From a virus, in IMG/VR virus record IMGVR_UViG_3300021963_000086, positions 1 through 64,000 of that record: a stretch of 64,000 nucleotides of DNA. One strand, given 5' to 3'. Position numbers and translations under genes: made by a program. The stretch's first letter is position 1. Every line of letters begins with the position of its first letter. The notes beneath the pieces are model-generated. The model ran no database searches, had not been told where the DNA came from, and was given only the letters and a program-made list of their open reading frames with translations. Of the stretch, positions 107 through 5,443 are shown piece by piece.

Positions 107-979
107 ATGAACCAAAATAACCAGTTCAACCCACTGGCTCAGTACACACGCAGAACAGCTAGATATGTAAAATTGCCTAGCGGAGGGCAATTTTATACTA
201 AAGGTATCGATTTGGCTGATAACGGAGAACTTGCAGTTTATCCTATGACTGCTAAAGACGAGCTTTTACTTAAGAGTCCCGATGCTTTATTAAACGGCGA
301 AGCTGTAAAAACAGTTTTACGCAACTGTGTTCCCGGCATTGCTGATCCAGGCGAAATTCCTACTATTGACTTAGAACTTATCCTAGTTGCAATCCGCATG
401 TCAACTTATGGTGATAATATGGATATGGAAGTTACTCACCAGTGTAGTCCAGATAAAGAACATACCAGTACTGCATCTGTTAATCTAGGCAACCTATTAG
501 ATTCTGCAACTTATTACAGCGGTGATCCAATGGTAATTCGTATGCCAAATGGATTGCTTGCAGAAATTCGTCCTTATACCATGAGTGACAGAAATAAAGT
601 GTCAATGGCTACATGGGAACAAATGAGTCACATGAATCAAGTCGACAACGACAAAACTGCTGATGCTACTAAGAAACTTAAAGAAGCAAGTGCAGGAGTC
701 AGCAAGTTAATCACTGTAACGTTAGACATTGTATGTAATTCTGTAATTAAAGTAACAACCCCAGACGGTACTGAAGTAACAGATCAACGCTTTATCAAAG
801 ATTGGGTTAATAATCTAGAAAAATCAGAGTTTGACATTATCGATAAAGGTATTAAAAGTCTAATGGATATCGGCATTGCAAAAGAAATGCATCTAAAGTG
901 CGAGAATTGCGGAGAAGACTTTACTACTACTATTAATTTTAACCCTAGCGATTTTTTCGCGCAAGGCTTACCGAGCTAA
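107..979 (+). CDS. Baseplate hub assembly protein / tail assembly chaperone, T4 gp26-like
   Basis: LPSGG-FY start, PMTAKDELLL, DLELILVAIR..TYG, C-terminal CxxC and ...DFF; GGAG RBS. Confidence 0.75.
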   Translation: MNQNNQFNPLAQYTRRTARYVKLPSGGQFYTKGIDLADNGELAVYPMTAKDELLLKSPDALLNGEAVKTVLRNCVPGIADPGEIPTIDLELILVAIRMSTYGDNMDMEVTHQCSPDKEHTSTASVNLGNLLDSATYYSGDPMVIRMPNGLLAEIRPYTMSDRNKVSMATWEQMSHMNQVDNDKTADATKKLKEASAGVSKLITVTLDIVCNSVIKVTTPDGTEVTDQRFIKDWVNNLEKSEFDIIDKGIKSLMDIGIAKEMHLKCENCGEDFTTTINFNPSDFFAQGLPS

Positions 980-1038
980 AAGAACAGCCAGCTGAGCTAG
1001 CCAAATTTGTATCAGGGCTAGAAGAGGACGGGAAAGCC

Positions 1039-1191
1039 ATGAAAACAGACCTCATGACGTTGGCCATAGTATCAAACATGTCGTACGATAGCATTGTTGA
1101 AATGAGTAATGATGAAAGAAATGCTTTAGCAGATGCCCTTAAAGCCAGAGCAGAAGCAGAAGAAAAGGCATATAAATCAGCGAAACGCTAA
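1039..1191 (+). CDS. Small gp51/gpE'-like chaperone segment (50 aa), possibly made as a -1 frameshift extension of 107..979
   Basis: Not in the ORF track; frame open from 952 to TAA at 1189-1191; MSYDSIVEMSNDERNAL resembles gp51/GT-type tails. Confidence 0.55.
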   Translation: MKTDLMTLAIVSNMSYDSIVEMSNDERNALADALKARAEAEEKAYKSAKR

Positions 1192-1696
1192 TCTATTATG
1201 TCGGCTGTGTAAACACAGCCTAATCTTCATGTTACTTCGTAACATTCGATTAATTTTTTATCTATCGAACGAAGATCATATATTTTTAGAATGATTAAGT
1301 ATTATCCTGAGTTCAGTCACACTTAGCCTTAAGCACAAGGCTAAGATGTTTGACATTATCCTTCATCCATATGTCACACTCTAATTAAGCAACTTGTATT
1401 GACCAAGAAAGGGCGGTCACGCTGTACCCTTTTATGCTAGACTTTGACGCAATCACACAACACTATTAGAGCAGTTTGTGTAACCTGTGAGTTGTAATTG
1501 TTCACCAGAGCTCACTCGTTTTAGCTTTACGTATACTAAACCCAGTTCTTTTCAAGCAATTGAACTTCGTCCTGTTAAGGATAGTGGTTTTAGTCTCTGC
1601 TACGGCGCAGAAGTTCCGTCCCTGTGCTCACGCCTGGCCAGGTCTAGGGCGCATAGTAATCAGCCTGCGCTAGCTTATCCGTAGTGTTAGCCTGTA
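1192..1696 (-). ncRNA. Candidate large structured non-coding element (ncRNA or origin); strand inferred
   Basis: 505 nt without a credible gene in a gene-dense genome, with about ten hairpins (e.g. 1203-1220, 1229-1245, 1322-1345, 1408-1432, 1649-1670). Confidence 0.5.
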
Positions 1697-2131
1697 TTAG
1701 CCGTTTAATTTGTCTTTAATATGGGAGCCATGTACTCGAACCTGGATGTGACCGTTGTACCAGTCTGCAGATTCTAAAACCTTATGTGTAAATTGTTCTC
1801 TAGCCTCTATGTATGAGCATTCTGCCTTTGATTTGCAATAGTATAAAATTTCTCGTGTAAAATTTTCTTTGCCTAGGTTTTGTACGTCTTTGTTGAGTTG
1901 ATCGTTTGAGCCATAGTAGTCGCGCCAATCTGAATCAATCTTGGAGCGAATCTTCTTTTTCTTTTTGTTGCCGTTTTTAAGTTTTACTGTTTTGTATGTG
2001 GTTTTTGAGAATTTTGCTAGTTTTTTGCCTATATATTTGCGTCCGTTAGTGTTATTAGTAATAAGATACACGAATCCTATACAATCTTCCGGAAGTGTTT
2101 CTACAGGAATACCTTGAAATAACCATGTCAT
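1697..2131 (-). CDS. Stand-alone GIY-YIG family endonuclease-like protein
   Basis: GFVYLITN...YIGKK motif, YYGS, conserved E..EQ and YN; basic KKKKKIR insert. Confidence 0.8.
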   Translation of the reverse strand: MTWLFQGIPVETLPEDCIGFVYLITNNTNGRKYIGKKLAKFSKTTYKTVKLKNGNKKKKKIRSKIDSDWRDYYGSNDQLNKDVQNLGKENFTREILYYCKSKAECSYIEAREQFTHKVLESADWYNGHIQVRVHGSHIKDKLNG

Positions 2132-2149: not shown

Positions 2150-2806
2150 TTAGATCTGTCCTATCAGATCTTTGAGATTGGGCCGTGTATAGTAAATGAA
2201 TGTTACTGCGGCACGTTCATAAACACGATTTACTTCTTCTACCGTATTACACTCGTTTATTTCCCTAACCGTTTGTAAACGGGCCATTTCAAGTTTGTAT
2301 AGTGTTGTATCTTCTTCTTCTAATTTGAATTTGATTAATTTGATTGCCTGTTCATGTGTAATTTTGTGTGCCTTAGCGAACCCGTGTACCCATTTGTTAT
2401 CCCAGTCATTATTTTTTTGAATAGTTAAGTAACGATTGAAAGTTTCCTTGTCATCAAAACTTCTTGCCATTGTATAGATAAATTCTAAGCTGTTAATAAA
2501 GTATGCAAGTGCATAGCACTTGGCTTTAATAGTATAAACTTGTTGTCTTTTCTCTTCTGTAACATAATGAAAATCGTCTCTTAACTCTACTTTTTCAGGG
2601 CCAAGGTTATAAACTCTAAAATTGTTAATTTCATTGTACATATTAAAATTTACATAACCTCTGTAAATTTTTAAATTTAATCCTAAATGCGCTACAGGCG
2701 GTACAGTGATATCACTGCTAACGTCAGTAGTGTACCAAATAACCAAGTTAGTATCTTGGAGACAAAGCATTTTACATCTATGATAAAAATGACTAGGTGC
2801 TTTCAT
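2150..2806 (-). CDS. Partner protein of AsnB-like ligase with a C-terminal tail-fibre-chaperone-like helical domain
   Basis: C-terminal EQAIKLIKFK..E.ARL...INECNTVEEV parallels 49703..50323; 4-nt overlap with the upstream ligase gene. Confidence 0.5.
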   Translation of the reverse strand: MKAPSHFYHRCKMLCLQDTNLVIWYTTDVSSDITVPPVAHLGLNLKIYRGYVNFNMYNEINNFRVYNLGPEKVELRDDFHYVTEEKRQQVYTIKAKCYALAYFINSLEFIYTMARSFDDKETFNRYLTIQKNNDWDNKWVHGFAKAHKITHEQAIKLIKFKLEEEDTTLYKLEMARLQTVREINECNTVEEVNRVYERAAVTFIYYTRPNLKDLIGQI

Positions 2807-3873
2807 ATGATTATAAGATCAGTAATATCATCAGTAGATTTAAACTGTCCGTCTTGTTTGTATATAATTGTCTTTTGCATAGTGCGTACAGTATGCTTTT
2901 GGCTGTAGAGCTTTTCCTTGTTCTTAACGTAGGCTTCGTCTTTGGTAAAATCAAAGATATATCTTTTCGGAAAATCTCTAAAGTCGCTGGTACTTTTAAA
3001 AGTAGGATTAGTGCTCATATACTCAAATGAATATGTAGCAAACTCATGATCGTAATAAAATCTAAAGACCTTATGATCATCATTATCAATACCCGTTACA
3101 TCGTAGTCTGACCAAACATAGGGTCTTACTAATTCATCTTGCCCGGCAAAGGCCTGACTAAACCACCAAGCCAGTTGACTAACAGAATTAATTTCAAAAG
3201 GCGCATGTTCTCTTAATCCTTCGATCACAGGTTCCACACATTTGCCTTCTGGATCGATTGCTCTCCAAACTTTTTCTAGTTCTTCTTTAGGTAAGTCAAT
3301 TGACTTACCCCCGTCAGGCCACCATTGATGTAGATCTTGAGTACCTATAATATAGTCTCCGATGTCACCAGTAATCAGCATTAGATTAGGATCATTCATA
3401 TCTCGCTGATGATCCATAGCCATAATGGGAATGTTAGGAAGTATAAATTCGTAGAATAGTTTAGAGTATTCTAAGATGCTACTGCTGGTCATGTTAAGTA
3501 CAAACTGCCCAGCTTCTAGTTTTTCTTTAAATCTAGGATGTTGTGCTAGAGCACATAGAACCTGTACGCTGTCAATACCTCCGCTATAACAAAGACTAAT
3601 AACTCTATCACCTGCTATACGATATATTTTGTCAGCAACAGAATCAGTAATTGCCACATATCTATCATACCAATCATTGGTCAAATTTGATAGATTATAT
3701 GTTACGGGTTTCATAATTACTTCTGCTTTAAGATCTCTTACGTTTTTTAATACGCCAAAACGATCTGCACCGAATTCGTAATGATTCGATATAAGTCTGT
3801 AATTCTTACGCCAACTAGGACTGTTAAATCTTAATGCAGACCAATTGGCCCATACATAGGTACGTTCACTCAT
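2803..3873 (-). CDS. AsnB synthetase-domain-like (PP-loop) ATP-dependent ligase, subtype A
   Basis: YSGGIDS PP-loop plus LITGDIGD (compare AsnB SGEGADE); no glutaminase domain. Confidence 0.7.
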   Translation of the reverse strand: MSERTYVWANWSALRFNSPSWRKNYRLISNHYEFGADRFGVLKNVRDLKAEVIMKPVTYNLSNLTNDWYDRYVAITDSVADKIYRIAGDRVISLCYSGGIDSVQVLCALAQHPRFKEKLEAGQFVLNMTSSSILEYSKLFYEFILPNIPIMAMDHQRDMNDPNLMLITGDIGDYIIGTQDLHQWWPDGGKSIDLPKEELEKVWRAIDPEGKCVEPVIEGLREHAPFEINSVSQLAWWFSQAFAGQDELVRPYVWSDYDVTGIDNDDHKVFRFYYDHEFATYSFEYMSTNPTFKSTSDFRDFPKRYIFDFTKDEAYVKNKEKLYSQKHTVRTMQKTIIYKQDGQFKSTDDITDLIII

Positions 3874-5443
3874 CTGTGTAAATGTTGTCTTTTAAGTATT
3901 GGTATAGGGTCGGTGAATTATTTGCGGCCTCTTGCCATCTTGCTTTTTTAATCTCAAAACTTTCAACTATTCCATTAACGTCAGGTAACTGATTATCTAG
4001 TTTAATGTCTACAGAATCTAATAGCAAGTAATTTAATCCTGTAGAAATCCAGGTTATACCTTGTGTGGGGTCTATGGAATTAATATGCATCTTTGTATCA
4101 GCCAAAGGATAAAAGCCTTGACCAGTATTTGGTTTAAGGTTTTCAATTCCTGGACAATATGTACGATTAGCATTGGCCTTCCAGTACTCTGTATCGTCCC
4201 TTACACTGAGAGCATAATGTTGTGCCACAAATTCTGCAAAGTTCCTAAAGATTGCAAAAGTAGAAGCGTTATAAGCATCTTTTTCCCATTGTGTAATAGC
4301 AGGACGTTGTAAAACTTTTATTAACTTGAATAAGAATTGGTGAACACTAAACAATCCGTTGGATTCTAAAGGTTCAATGAATCCTGCACTTAACCCAATC
4401 GCAACTACGTTTTTAACAAAGGTGCGTTCATGAATACCTACACGCATTTCGATATTTTTGTATTCTAGCGCATCTACTTCTTCTCTAGTTCGAGGATATA
4501 ACATTTTATCACTCATTAGATATTGTTTGAATTGCTCTAGTGCATCAGCATCATTAATAAACTTATCACTATAAACATAGCCTGTACCTAAACGCGACCA
4601 TAATGGAATATTCCAAACCCAGCCATTGTCAATAGCAGTACAGTTTGTAAACGGCTCTAATTCTGTTTCTTTATTTTTATAAGGTAAACGAGTTGCCCAT
4701 GCCTTGTTATTAGGTAGCATATCACTATAACTGATAAATGGTTCATTGAGTGCGTTTAGCAACAAACTCTTAAATCCAGTGCAATCAATAAACAAATCGC
4801 CCTCGACTCTATTCAACGGATTGCTTTCAAGTTGTAAACTTTGTATACCATGTTGTCTTACGTGTACATAAACAACATCATCTTCAATACGTTTAACACC
4901 CCGCGGCAAACAATAACGATCACGCAACCATGCACCAAACTTTGTAGCATCAAAATGATATGCGACATCTCTATTTGGGTTGAAGTTGTCAAATGTCATA
5001 TCTTTGTTAGGATTATATTTGTTGTTTTCAAATAATGCGGCACTAGGGAAATAGCATCGCGCAAAATCTTGTACAGGTGTTTCAGGGTGAACATGTTTCT
5101 TGTAATACCAATCGTAGATTCCTGTCTGCGTCCCGTCTAATAACACCCGGCCAAATGGATAATGGAAGCTACCGGCATTCTTTTCATAAAAATCCGTAAA
5201 CTTGATACTAAGTTTGTAGCTAGCATCAGTAAATTCCATAAAGTCTTTTTCGTCTATTTCTAACCAATTAGTATAGTCTCTAATGCCACCAATAGTACTT
5301 TCGCCTACTCCAATAATAGGAATGTTAGGACTTTCAATTACTGTAATATCTTTGTCAGGAAATGTTTTAATAAGAATAGCGGCTGTCATCCAACCAGCAG
5401 ATCCTCCTCCTACAATTACAATTTTGTTGTTTGGTTTAATCAT
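3866..5443 (-). CDS. Flavin-dependent tryptophan halogenase family protein
   Basis: GGGSAGW FAD motif, GVGEST, ASYKLSIKF (catalytic Lys position), FIDCTGF, WVWNIP, FIEPLES. Confidence 0.9.
   Translation of the reverse strand: MIKPNNKIVIVGGGSAGWMTAAILIKTFPDKDITVIESPNIPIIGVGESTIGGIRDYTNWLEIDEKDFMEFTDASYKLSIKFTDFYEKNAGSFHYPFGRVLLDGTQTGIYDWYYKKHVHPETPVQDFARCYFPSAALFENNKYNPNKDMTFDNFNPNRDVAYHFDATKFGAWLRDRYCLPRGVKRIEDDVVYVHVRQHGIQSLQLESNPLNRVEGDLFIDCTGFKSLLLNALNEPFISYSDMLPNNKAWATRLPYKNKETELEPFTNCTAIDNGWVWNIPLWSRLGTGYVYSDKFINDADALEQFKQYLMSDKMLYPRTREEVDALEYKNIEMRVGIHERTFVKNVVAIGLSAGFIEPLESNGLFSVHQFLFKLIKVLQRPAITQWEKDAYNASTFAIFRNFAEFVAQHYALSVRDDTEYWKANANRTYCPGIENLKPNTGQGFYPLADTKMHINSIDPTQGITWISTGLNYLLLDSVDIKLDNQLPDVNGIVESFEIKKARWQEAANNSPTLYQYLKDNIYTDE

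What the first reader, a model, noticed from the sequence alone, without database searches (positions are those of the whole stretch)
1192..2131. About 500-nt hairpin-dense non-coding element directly behind a stand-alone GIY-YIG gene
Seen: the largest gene-free stretch in the window starts right after the GIY-YIG stop on the - strand and is packed with stems: GCGCA/TGCGC 1649-1670, CCTGGCCAGG 1633-1642, TCTGC/GCAGA 1596-1611, AGTTC/GAACT, GTGAG/CTCAC 1487-1515, AAAGGG/CCCTTT 1408-1432, CTTAGCCTT/AAGGCTAAG 1322-1345, a three-way junction 1223-1276 and GGCTGTG/CACAGCC 1203-1220. It is GC-richer than other intergenic DNA here. The 144-aa nuclease lacks the usual homing-endonuclease DNA-binding tail but has a Lys-rich insert. 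Inference: a large phage ncRNA that may form an RNP with the minimal nuclease (compare HEARO/OMEGA-type nuclease-RNA pairs), or a nuclease-processed origin. I do not recognise it as a known family.
Basis: partly seen in the sequence, partly recalled or inferred. Interest (0 to 1): 0.8.

Follow-up and report, generated by a model that had tools for sequence, protein, structure and literature searches.

The report
Extended Polynucleobacter-1 twin-box phage RNA
The gene-free 500 bases behind a small nuclease gene of this uncultured giant T4-like phage encode a real, knotted non-coding RNA; its first third is an orphan RNA motif catalogued in 2010, it looks like a gene of its own and not a guide for the nuclease, and its job is unknown.

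Summary
Window 1192-1696 is by far the largest ORF-free stretch and encodes, on the minus strand, a structured RNA of about 490 nt (about 1686 to 1200). Weinberg et al. 2010 already placed that motif downstream of a gene family like PSSM2_218, which I show is this GIY-YIG family. The remaining 350 nt are conserved too. On 35 diverged relatives, 87 pairs in 20 helices, including two pseudoknots, are 93.5% paired against about 40% in slid controls, and 69 pairs show compensatory changes. The 3' domain carries one short word twice (here AGGAUAAU at 1362-1355 and 1308-1301). The two copies are identical in 34 of 35 and 102 of 102 RNAs, although the word changed at least 11 times. The nuclease-RNA particle idea is not supported. 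The RNA occurs without the nuclease in Polynucleobacter islands, and the nuclease family occurs without the RNA in cultured phages. Unrelated genes are inserted between the two, no complement of the word is found, and no nuclease residue tracks it. This scan found the same RNA before on other DNA. Function remains unknown.

The parts
1200..1686 (-). Full-length structured RNA of about 490 nt (extended Polynucleobacter-1). The ends are inferred: the 5' end lies about 11 nt after the GIY-YIG stop, and the 3' end is at the terminal hairpin or at the terminator-like hairpin further on.
   Evidence: Alignments A1 and A4 with covariation; nhmmer finds the 5' and 3' domains at constant spacing in relatives.
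1535..1675 (-). 5' domain, equal to Rfam RF01718 Polynucleobacter-1 RNA, model positions 1-141
   Evidence: cmscan 98.4 bits against a gathering score of 37, E 1e-21
1487..1515 (-). Hairpin GUGAG/CUCAC of the variable middle domain
   Evidence: Compensatory GUGAG/CUCAC to GUAGG/CCUAC in relatives of the window type
1452..1484 (-). Long variable hairpin (GUUACACAA / UUGUGUGAU)
   Evidence: Covarying helix, columns 213-225 with 238-249 of A4; its equivalent in A1 is helix 10
1410..1433 (-). Conserved hairpin AGGGU...GCCCU. In relatives its loop forms a pseudoknot with an upstream strand.
   Evidence: Helices 13 and 16; GUUGU/ACAAC changes to GUCAU/AUGAC, GUCAG/CUGAC and GUUGA/UCAAC
1355..1362 (-). 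Twin box 1, AGGAUAAU, preceded by AGUGUGAC at 1380-1373
1322..1345 (-). Conserved hairpin between the two boxes (CUUAGCCU / AGGCUAAG)
   Evidence: Helix 17; nearly invariant in sequence
1301..1308 (-). Twin box 2, AGGAUAAU, preceded by AGUGUGAC at 1323-1316
   Evidence: the boxes are identical in 34/35 and 102/102 relatives
1221..1253 (-). Hairpin with a GA/GAA internal loop (UUAAUC-GA-AUGUUAC GAA GUAACAU-GAA-GAUUA)
   Evidence: Covariation in A4, columns 519-528 with 542-552; its equivalent in A1 is helices 18-19
1203..1220 (-). Terminal hairpin GGCUGUG/CACAGCC
   Evidence: Helix 20: all 8 pairs show compensatory changes
1172..1196 (-). Terminator-like hairpin plus a T-rich tail on the minus strand. 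It overlaps the end of the converging ORF 1039-1191 and is a possible 3' end of the transcript.
   Evidence: Consensus scan only
1697..2131 (-). Stand-alone GIY-YIG nuclease-domain gene (144 aa; phrog_447, mislabelled 'NAD synthetase' in many phage records). It is a neighbour of the RNA, not shown to be its partner.
   Evidence: Pfam PF19835 E 1.4e-34; PHROG 2.5e-38; AlphaFold2 pLDDT 96; I-TevI catalytic domain Z 8.5

Best explanation
Window 1686-1200 (minus strand) is a gene for a folded, multiply pseudoknotted non-coding RNA of about 490 nt.

Shown:
- Its 5' third is a full member of the orphan Rfam family Polynucleobacter-1.
- It has a lineage-variable middle and a conserved 3' domain that Rfam does not model.
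- It is read in the same direction as the GIY-YIG gene, and no sigma-70-like promoter lies between them.
- The 3' domain holds one 7-9-nt word twice, on repeated AGUGUGAC-N7-10-box modules.

Inferred:
- It is probably made by read-through from the GIY-YIG gene and then cut out, or from a phage-specific promoter.
- It acts in trans as a gene of its own. A rigid knotted scaffold shows two identical recognition words to one two-sited or dimeric partner.
- That partner is more likely a nucleic acid from outside the phage than a conserved protein, because the words change fast and always together.
- The word then serves as an element-specific specificity tag.

The GIY-YIG protein is a conserved neighbour in this phage clade, not the RNA's obligate partner. 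I put the identity of the element at about 0.95 and the trans-acting display mechanism at about 0.3.
For: - Family membership: RF01718 at 98.4 bits, full length.
- Spread: 54 of 80 relatives fetched through the protein carry RF01718 above the cut-off. The 3' domain is found in 68 of 81 at constant spacing.
- Structure: 87 pairs in 20 helices are 93.5% paired against 32-41% when slid. 69 pairs have changes on both sides, and 0 of 500 shuffles reach the observed values. Two pseudoknots are included. Helices of the window's own subtype covary too.
- Strand: many G-U pairs (for example 35/35 U-G at columns 355/367) fix the strand.
- Twin boxes: identical in 34/35 and 102/102 RNAs, in more than 15 word variants. 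There are at least 11 changes on a tree built without the box columns.
- Independence from the nuclease:
  - 18 bacterial loci have the RNA and no GIY-YIG.
  - Four cultured phages with homologs of 50% identity or less have no RNA.
  - At least five unrelated ORF families are inserted between the gene and the RNA in about 12 loci.
  - No GIY-YIG column tracks the box.
- Specificity tag: two RNA copies in one Polynucleobacter chromosome carry different words.
Against: - No transcript data exist; the RNA ends and the promoter are inferred.
- No partner for the boxes was found: not in the RNA, not in the flanks, and not in an 86%-complete 285-kb phage record. The trans-partner step is therefore pure inference.
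- Within the phage clade the RNA follows the GIY-YIG gene in 24 of 25 and 82 of 92 RNA-first loci, so a functional link inside phages is not excluded.
- In some subtypes part of a box can pair locally.
- The single-sequence fold is only z -2.36.
Confidence: 0.75

Rival explanations
1. Nuclease-RNA particle. The GIY-YIG protein consists of a catalytic domain only. It would bind the RNA, which would supply target recognition through the twin boxes, as omega RNAs do for IscB/TnpB.
For: - Tight same-strand adjacency in phages: 24/25 and 82/92.
- The protein has no DNA-binding tail.
- The protein is far better conserved (75-89% identity) than the neighbouring baseplate hub (24-50%).
- The boxes are variable and specificity-like.
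Against: - The RNA occurs without the nuclease in 18 bacterial loci.
- The nuclease family occurs without the RNA in cultured phages.
- Unrelated ORFs are inserted between the two.
- No complement of the box exists in the flanks or in a near-complete phage genome.
- No protein residue covaries with the box.
- No RNA-guided GIY-YIG enzyme appears in the searched literature.
Confidence: 0.05
2. General RNA cofactor of small DNA-breaking or DNA-joining enzymes. The twin identical boxes would pair with the identical core sequence of two DNA partners and bring them together. The enzyme would be the GIY-YIG nuclease in phages and the 188-aa tyrosine recombinase in bacterial islands, loosely like an IS110 bridge RNA.
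For: - In bacteria a catalytic-domain-sized tyrosine recombinase (Pfam Phage_integrase, E 1.2e-25; 188 aa) lies on the same strand, its start about 300-900 nt past the RNA's end, in 9 of 18 loci.
- Two identical words fit two sites that share a core.
- Two islands in one genome carry different words.
Against: - No copy or complement of the box sits at a fixed place in 8-kb bacterial loci.
- No tRNA or att-like landmark is seen.
- FimB/FimE-type recombinases of about 200 aa work without RNA (established knowledge).
- The DUF6641 gene is the more constant bacterial neighbour (15/18), and its fold is uninformative.
Confidence: 0.05
3. Homing target. The GIY-YIG gene would be a Seg-like selfish endonuclease that has settled beside a conserved RNA gene and cuts that gene in phages lacking it, as T4 SegB does in the tRNA cluster.
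For: - Pfam calls it a SegE-type domain.
- The fold is closest to I-TevI (Z 8.5).
- The gene-RNA junction is a hot spot for insertions.
Against: - It lacks the C-terminal DNA-binding domain of Seg proteins.
- It sits at the same locus in phages whose baseplate hub is only 24-50% identical, and it is itself 75-89% identical. Selfish genes are usually sporadic and decaying.
- It is syntenic with a tryptophan halogenase gene even in P-SSM2.
Confidence: 0.05
4. A cis-acting element: a 3' UTR that stabilises or terminates the GIY-YIG message, or a replication origin processed by the nuclease.
For: - It starts right at the stop codon of whichever ORF precedes it.
- Hairpins lie between converging transcription units.
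- In T4, oriF lies near genes 25/26 (recalled knowledge, not tested here).
Against: - About 490 nt with 20 covarying helices and pseudoknots is far beyond what a terminator or origin needs.
- The same RNA stands alone, divergent from its upstream gene, in bacteria.
- The G-U asymmetry argues for an RNA-level structure, not a DNA-level one.
Confidence: 0.04

Closest known systems
Polynucleobacter-1 RNA motif (Rfam RF01718; Weinberg et al. 2010, Genome Biol 11:R31, PMC2864571)
   Same: The 5' 141 nt are a full-length member at 98.4 bits. It has the same gene context: downstream of the GOS11034/PSSM2_218-like gene, shown here to be a GIY-YIG domain protein. It comes from the same freshwater and Burkholderiales milieu. 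Its function is equally unknown.
   Different: The Rfam model covers only the first third. The conserved 3' domain, the pseudoknots and the twin boxes are not modelled or described. The 2010 paper found no example in any purified phage, whereas this one lies on a T4-like phage contig.
HEARO / omega RNAs of IscB and TnpB (OMEGA systems)
   Same: A large structured RNA encoded next to a small nuclease gene on a mobile or viral genome.
   Different: The nuclease fold differs (GIY-YIG, not RuvC/HNH). There is no terminal guide segment and no transposon ends. The RNA and the nuclease each occur without the other. No DNA match to the variable word was found.
GOLLD and ROOL large RNAs of phages and prophages
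   Same: Large, ornate, pseudoknotted orphan RNAs carried by phages, with no known function and no obligate protein partner.
   Different: There is no sequence or model similarity: no Rfam hit other than RF01718. The twin co-varying boxes are not a described feature of those RNAs.
RNA-based immunity of satellite phage P4 (CI RNA with seqA/seqC) and of P1/P7 (c4 RNA)
   Same: Short sequence words are present more than once and change together between related elements, setting element-specific specificity. This comparison rests on my recall of the literature.
   Different: In those systems the complementary word lies on the same element. Here no complement was found in the RNA, its flanks or a near-complete phage genome. 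Those RNAs are also small and simple.
IS110-family bridge RNA
   Same: One folded RNA with two specificity loops that could hold two nucleic-acid partners, encoded next to a recombinase in the bacterial islands.
   Different: The recombinase class differs (tyrosine, not DEDD/serine). The two loops here are identical, not target and donor. No matching DNA sites were found, and the RNA is about three times larger.

Membership tests
Rfam RF01718 Polynucleobacter-1 RNA | Covariance-model score at or above the curated gathering score (37 bits) | tested here: met
   98.4 bits, E 1.2e-21, minus strand 1675-1535
Rfam RF01718 Polynucleobacter-1 RNA | Full-length match with the model's helices kept by compensatory changes | tested here: met
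   Model positions 1-141 of 141 are matched. Helices 1-8 are 91-100% paired; 23 of their 30 pairs have changes on both sides.
Rfam RF01718 Polynucleobacter-1 RNA | Lies downstream of a GOS11034 / PSSM2_218-like gene (context noted by its authors) | tested here: met
   The upstream gene is 34% identical to PSSM2_218 (E 1e-18). The text of the 2010 supplement is.
OMEGA-type RNA-guided nuclease systems (IscB/TnpB with omega RNA; HEARO) | Nuclease of the RuvC (with or without HNH) IscB/TnpB lineage | tested here: not met
   Pfam finds the SegE GIY-YIG domain only. The fold matches I-TevI, PD-T4-3, UvrC-N and EndoII.
OMEGA-type RNA-guided nuclease systems (IscB/TnpB with omega RNA; HEARO) | The RNA and the nuclease always occur together | tested here: not met
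   The RNA occurs without the nuclease in 18 bacterial loci. The nuclease family occurs without the RNA in 4 cultured phages.
OMEGA-type RNA-guided nuclease systems (IscB/TnpB with omega RNA; HEARO) | A variable guide segment that matches target DNA | tested here: inconclusive
   Variable words exist, but no complement is found in the flanks or in a 285-kb phage record. Host genomes could not be tested meaningfully with words of 7-9 nt.
T4 Seg-type free-standing GIY-YIG homing endonucleases | N-terminal GIY-YIG catalytic domain | tested here: met
   PF19835 E 1.4e-34; I-TevI catalytic domain Z 8.5, rmsd 2.7 over 82 residues
T4 Seg-type free-standing GIY-YIG homing endonucleases | C-terminal DNA-binding domain of about 100 aa | tested here: not met
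   The protein is 144 aa and the domain covers residues 3-129. The model is a single domain. Relatives are 130-165 aa.
T4 Seg-type free-standing GIY-YIG homing endonucleases | Sporadic presence among related genomes | tested here: not met
   The gene sits at the same locus next to the gp26-like gene in dozens of contigs whose gp26 is 24-50% identical, while the nuclease is 75-89% identical.
Group I intron carrying a GIY-YIG homing endonuclease gene | Intron core recognisable and interrupting a host gene | tested here: not met
   The element lies between converging genes, and only 18 nt separate the nuclease start from the preceding gene. No RF00028 match at E up to 10; taken alone, that absence is inconclusive.
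tmRNA / tRNA-like RNAs | tRNA-like domain and tag reading frame detectable | tested here: inconclusive
   ARAGORN finds no tRNA or tmRNA in the window, and Rfam finds no such family.
T4 endonuclease II (DenA) | Closest structural relative among GIY-YIG enzymes | tested here: inconclusive
   2wsh Z 5.5, below I-TevI at 8.5 and PD-T4-3 at 7.4. No sequence match to it in the PDB search.

The most novel reading that the evidence does not exclude
The twin boxes are programmable recognition words. The knotted RNA would pair through them with two copies of one short sequence on DNA or RNA. It would thereby direct, or bridge substrates for, small catalytic-domain-only DNA enzymes: the GIY-YIG nuclease in giant phages and the 188-aa tyrosine recombinase in Polynucleobacter islands. 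That would be a new class of RNA-guided DNA-cutting and DNA-joining system.
Probability: 0.05. Interest if true: 0.9.

Novelty: new variant of a known kind. Interest (0 to 1): 0.5.

Why it matters
Large, intricately folded RNAs with no known function are rare, and past examples have turned out to be ribozymes, riboswitches or guide RNAs. This one is very abundant: the neighbouring protein family alone gave at least 8000 clusters at 90% identity in public data, the limit of what that search scored. It is shared between giant freshwater phages and genomic islands of their likely hosts. It shows an unusual signature: two words that stay identical while changing often. That signature points to a sequence-specific reader and gives experimenters a precise handle, namely mutating one box or both. 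For annotation, it shows that RF01718 models only a third of the molecule. It also shows that the phrog_447 label 'NAD synthetase' on the neighbouring gene is wrong; the gene encodes a GIY-YIG nuclease domain.

Tried and rejected
- blastn of 1000-2300 against cultured phage records: no match.
- Rfam at E up to 10 on 900-2400: nothing credible besides RF01718. ARAGORN: nothing.
- Hammerhead-like reading of UGAGC-GNNA-GCGAAA: rejected by inspection. The flanks pair with each other, so it is a hairpin with a GA/GAA internal loop.
- Intramolecular partner of the boxes: only a U-rich stretch that already pairs elsewhere scores, and only with G-U allowed. No Watson-Crick site was found, and no third column has high mutual information with box position 1.
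- Complement of the box at a fixed place in phage flanks, in bacterial flanks, or anywhere in a 285-kb phage record: none.
- tRNA idea. Every variant reads 'triplet + A', like a T-box Specifier. It does not explain the concerted changes at positions 1-2, and the full complement would put a pyrimidine at tRNA position 37 in most variants. tRNA genes are absent from 15 of the 16 bacterial loci scanned.
- -10-promoter-like reading of GATAAT, CATAAT and AATAAT: it fails for the bacterial boxes and the GUGUCAAGU-type boxes.
- CsrA-type GGA sites: rejected, because many RNAs have AGA in both boxes.
- T4 EndoII orthology of the nuclease: not supported over I-TevI.
- DUF6641, the bacterial neighbour: model pLDDT 74 and only generic helical matches at Z about 5; no literature.
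- Literature on an RNA-guided GIY-YIG enzyme: nothing relevant.
- A third pseudoknot (AUCGCUUCGCUC with the GAGCG...AGCGAA loop): plausible, but nearly invariant, so untested.

Full report
**What is in the window**

ORF listing shows a 144-aa ORF on the minus strand at 2131-1697. Then no ORF of 70 aa or more follows until the converging gp26-like baseplate hub gene at 107-979 (Pfam T4_baseplate; PHROG baseplate hub). A 50-aa ORF lies at 1039-1191. The stretch 980-1696 is the largest ORF-free region of the 64-kb window; the next is 222 nt. It is richer in G+C than its surroundings.

The window is the first 64 kb of a 79-kb IMG/VR virus record rated 22% complete. Relatives of its nuclease lie on contigs of up to about 350 kb. 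The source is therefore probably a giant T4-like phage; this is an inference.

**Identity of the RNA**

A permissive Rfam scan finds one strong match. This is RF01718, Polynucleobacter-1 RNA, on the minus strand at 1675-1535, at 98.4 bits against a cut-off of 37, covering model positions 1-141. It is the only Rfam family above threshold in the whole window.

The only paper in the searched library that names this motif is Weinberg et al. 2010. Its supplement makes three points:
- Most examples lie downstream of genes of family GOS11034, with possible homology to PSSM2_218 of cyanophage P-SSM2.
- The 3' half is not always detected.
- No example was found in a purified phage.

I fetched PSSM2_218. 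It is a 145-aa gene next to a tryptophan halogenase and is 34% identical to the window's nuclease (E 1e-18). The window also has a tryptophan halogenase gene two genes upstream. What is new here is that the gene encodes a GIY-YIG domain.

**The RNA is larger than the Rfam model**

The flanks printed in the 2010 alignment already show conserved sequence 3' of the motif. Those stretches match the window's hairpins at 1345-1322 and 1433-1410. I tested this on relatives.

The protein query returned at least 576 viral contigs, of which 80 were fetched. RF01718 is above the cut-off in 54 of those 80 records. Iterated nhmmer finds the 5' domain in 58 and a conserved 3' domain in 68 of 81 sequences, at constant spacing, with a sequence-variable middle.

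A 35-sequence full-length alignment (A1), with a structure I set by hand from the RNAalifold consensus and a covariation dot plot, gives the following:
- 87 pairs in 20 helices, with 93.5% of cells paired against 32-41% when the partners are slid.
- 69 pairs with changes on both sides, against 20-30 in the slid controls.
- 431 compensated cells, against 50-69.
- 0 of 500 shuffles reach any observed measure.

Two helices are pseudoknots. One joins a hairpin loop to a strand about 140 columns downstream, and all four pairs of its main helix show compensatory changes. The other pairs GUUGU with ACAAC inside another hairpin's loop. This pair changes to GUCAU/AUGAC, GUCAG/CUGAC, GUUGA/UCAAC and GUUAG/CUAAC in different lineages. 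Frequent G-U pairs would be A-C on the other strand, so they fix the minus strand as the RNA strand.

The window belongs to a subtype with a different middle domain.

The window sequence folded alone is only modestly better than shuffles (z -2.36). The case therefore rests on comparison, not on thermodynamics.

**Twin boxes**

Earlier notes of this scan call this RNA 'twin-box'. I tested that claim myself.

In A1, a 7-nt word following CUC and a second copy following UCU, about 55 nt apart, are identical in 34 of 35 RNAs. Eight words occur: GGAUGAA, AGAUGAA, AGAUAAU, GGAUAAU, AGCUGAA, GGUUAAU, GGAUGAU and AGAUGAU. On a tree built without the box columns, the word changes at least 11 times, 7 of them at position 1. 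Close relatives such as L068 against L057 and L066 differ in both copies.

A second, independent sample was fetched with a 14-nt motif of the 3' domain. All 102 genuine RNAs in it have identical boxes, and new words appear (GCAUAAU, GAAUAAU, AGAUGAG). Bacterial members carry AGCGAAA, GGAGAAA, AGAGAAA or AUCAAAA. Another phage subtype carries 8-9-nt words such as GUGUCAAGU.

In the window the word is AGGAUAAU, at 1362-1355 and 1308-1301. Each copy is preceded by AGUGUGAC.

**What reads the boxes**

I could not find it.
- No Watson-Crick complement exists at a conserved place in the RNA.
- No third column covaries with box position 1.
- No complement sits at a fixed place in the phage flanks or the bacterial flanks.
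- The 9-nt word of one subtype occurs only as the two boxes themselves in an 86%-complete 285-kb phage record.
- No residue of the GIY-YIG protein tracks the box state.
- Two RNA copies in one Polynucleobacter chromosome carry different words. This fits an element-specific tag.

**Is the nuclease the partner?**

Within phages the linkage is strong. An RNA-first pattern scan of viral contigs gave 29 loci. Of the 25 that hold a real RNA and upstream DNA, 24 have the GIY-YIG gene directly upstream on the same strand. The second RNA-first sample gave 82 of 92, and at least four of the ten exceptions are chance pattern hits.

Four observations argue against an obligate pair:
1. The same pattern found 18 loci in bacterial genomes, mostly Polynucleobacter and other Burkholderiales, none with a GIY-YIG gene. 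There the RNA is flanked by a divergent DUF6641 gene in 15 of 18 loci. In 9 of 18, a 188-aa tyrosine recombinase lies downstream on the same strand.
2. The protein family (phrog_447) is widespread in cultured T4-like phages at 50% identity or less. In these phages no large gap follows the gene, and the four whole genomes tested have no RF01718 match.
3. In about a dozen relatives, ORFs from at least five unrelated families sit between the nuclease gene and the RNA, and the RNA then begins at the inserted ORF's stop.
4. No guide-like complementarity was found (see above).

**The nuclease itself**

It is a single GIY-YIG domain: Pfam residues 3-129 and an AlphaFold2 model at pLDDT 96. It is closest in fold to the I-TevI catalytic domain (Z 8.5). 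The next matches are PD-T4-3 (7.4), UvrC-N (5.8) and T4 EndoII (5.5). The Lys-rich insert forms a beta-hairpin.

Its conservation is striking: 75-89% identity between phages whose baseplate hub is 24-50% identical. That does not fit a decaying selfish homing gene. The label 'NAD synthetase' carried by this family in many records is a misnomer.

**How it most likely works**

Shown: a folded, pseudoknotted RNA of the RF01718 family, transcribed from the minus strand, with no sigma-70-like promoter between it and the upstream gene.

Inferred: a trans-acting scaffold that shows two identical words to a two-sited reader, probably a nucleic acid from outside the phage, with the word acting as a specificity tag. 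I put this mechanism at about 0.3. The RNA-guided nuclease, recombinase-cofactor, homing-target and cis-element readings get about 0.05 each.

**Novelty**

The family and its gene context are known. The full-length architecture, the pseudoknots, the twin boxes, the phage origin and the identity of the neighbouring gene are not in Rfam or in the literature I could search. This scan has reached the same conclusion on other windows.

Noticed in passing
L013, L016, L021, L029, L034, L047, L052, L053, L056, L061, L068, L079 (about 3300-4400 in each locus): The junction between the GIY-YIG gene and the RNA is an insertion hot spot. ORFs of 200-340 aa from at least five mutually unrelated families, none with a Pfam match, sit there in different phages. 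Where an RNA 5' domain is found (L016, L029, L034, L047, L068, L079), it begins at the inserted ORF's stop.
   Followed up: partly
L086-L103 (for example L091:1017-1583 minus strand, L091:2593-3030 plus strand): In Polynucleobacter and related genomes the RNA lies in a conserved island. A DUF6641 gene (145 aa, 79-99% identical among hundreds of copies) lies divergent upstream. Downstream are a 188-aa FimB/Xer-like tyrosine recombinase and two further conserved ORFs without Pfam matches. One chromosome holds two copies with different box words.
   Followed up: partly
window 1697-2131 (-) against window 107-979 (+), and loci L002-L081: The small nuclease is 75-89% identical across contigs whose adjacent baseplate hub protein is only 24-50% identical. 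This is unusually strong conservation, or recent spread, for a phage accessory gene.
   Followed up: partly
Phage records (for example NC_006883 PSSM2_218, NC_028945 gp310, NC_041997 gp020): This GIY-YIG family (phrog_447) is labelled 'NAD synthetase' in many deposited phage genomes. Pfam and the predicted fold show a GIY-YIG nuclease domain.
   Followed up: yes
window 945-1191 (+): The gp26-like ORF ends at 979, and a 50-aa ORF follows at 1039-1191. I did not test it.
   Followed up: no
L107, L112, L116, L126 (prophage-like contigs): The 26-nt core pattern of the RNA's 5' domain matches exactly, but the rest of the RNA is absent: nhmmer finds nothing, and in L107 and L112 a long ORF starts 114 nt downstream. 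This may be a fragment or a shared module.
   Followed up: no
window 2150-2806 (-): The 218-aa protein just upstream of the nuclease has a weak, sub-threshold match to the Acb2/Tad1 hairpin domain (E 0.0028, 18 bits against a cut-off of 27). This may be an anti-defence sponge lead or may be chance.
   Followed up: no
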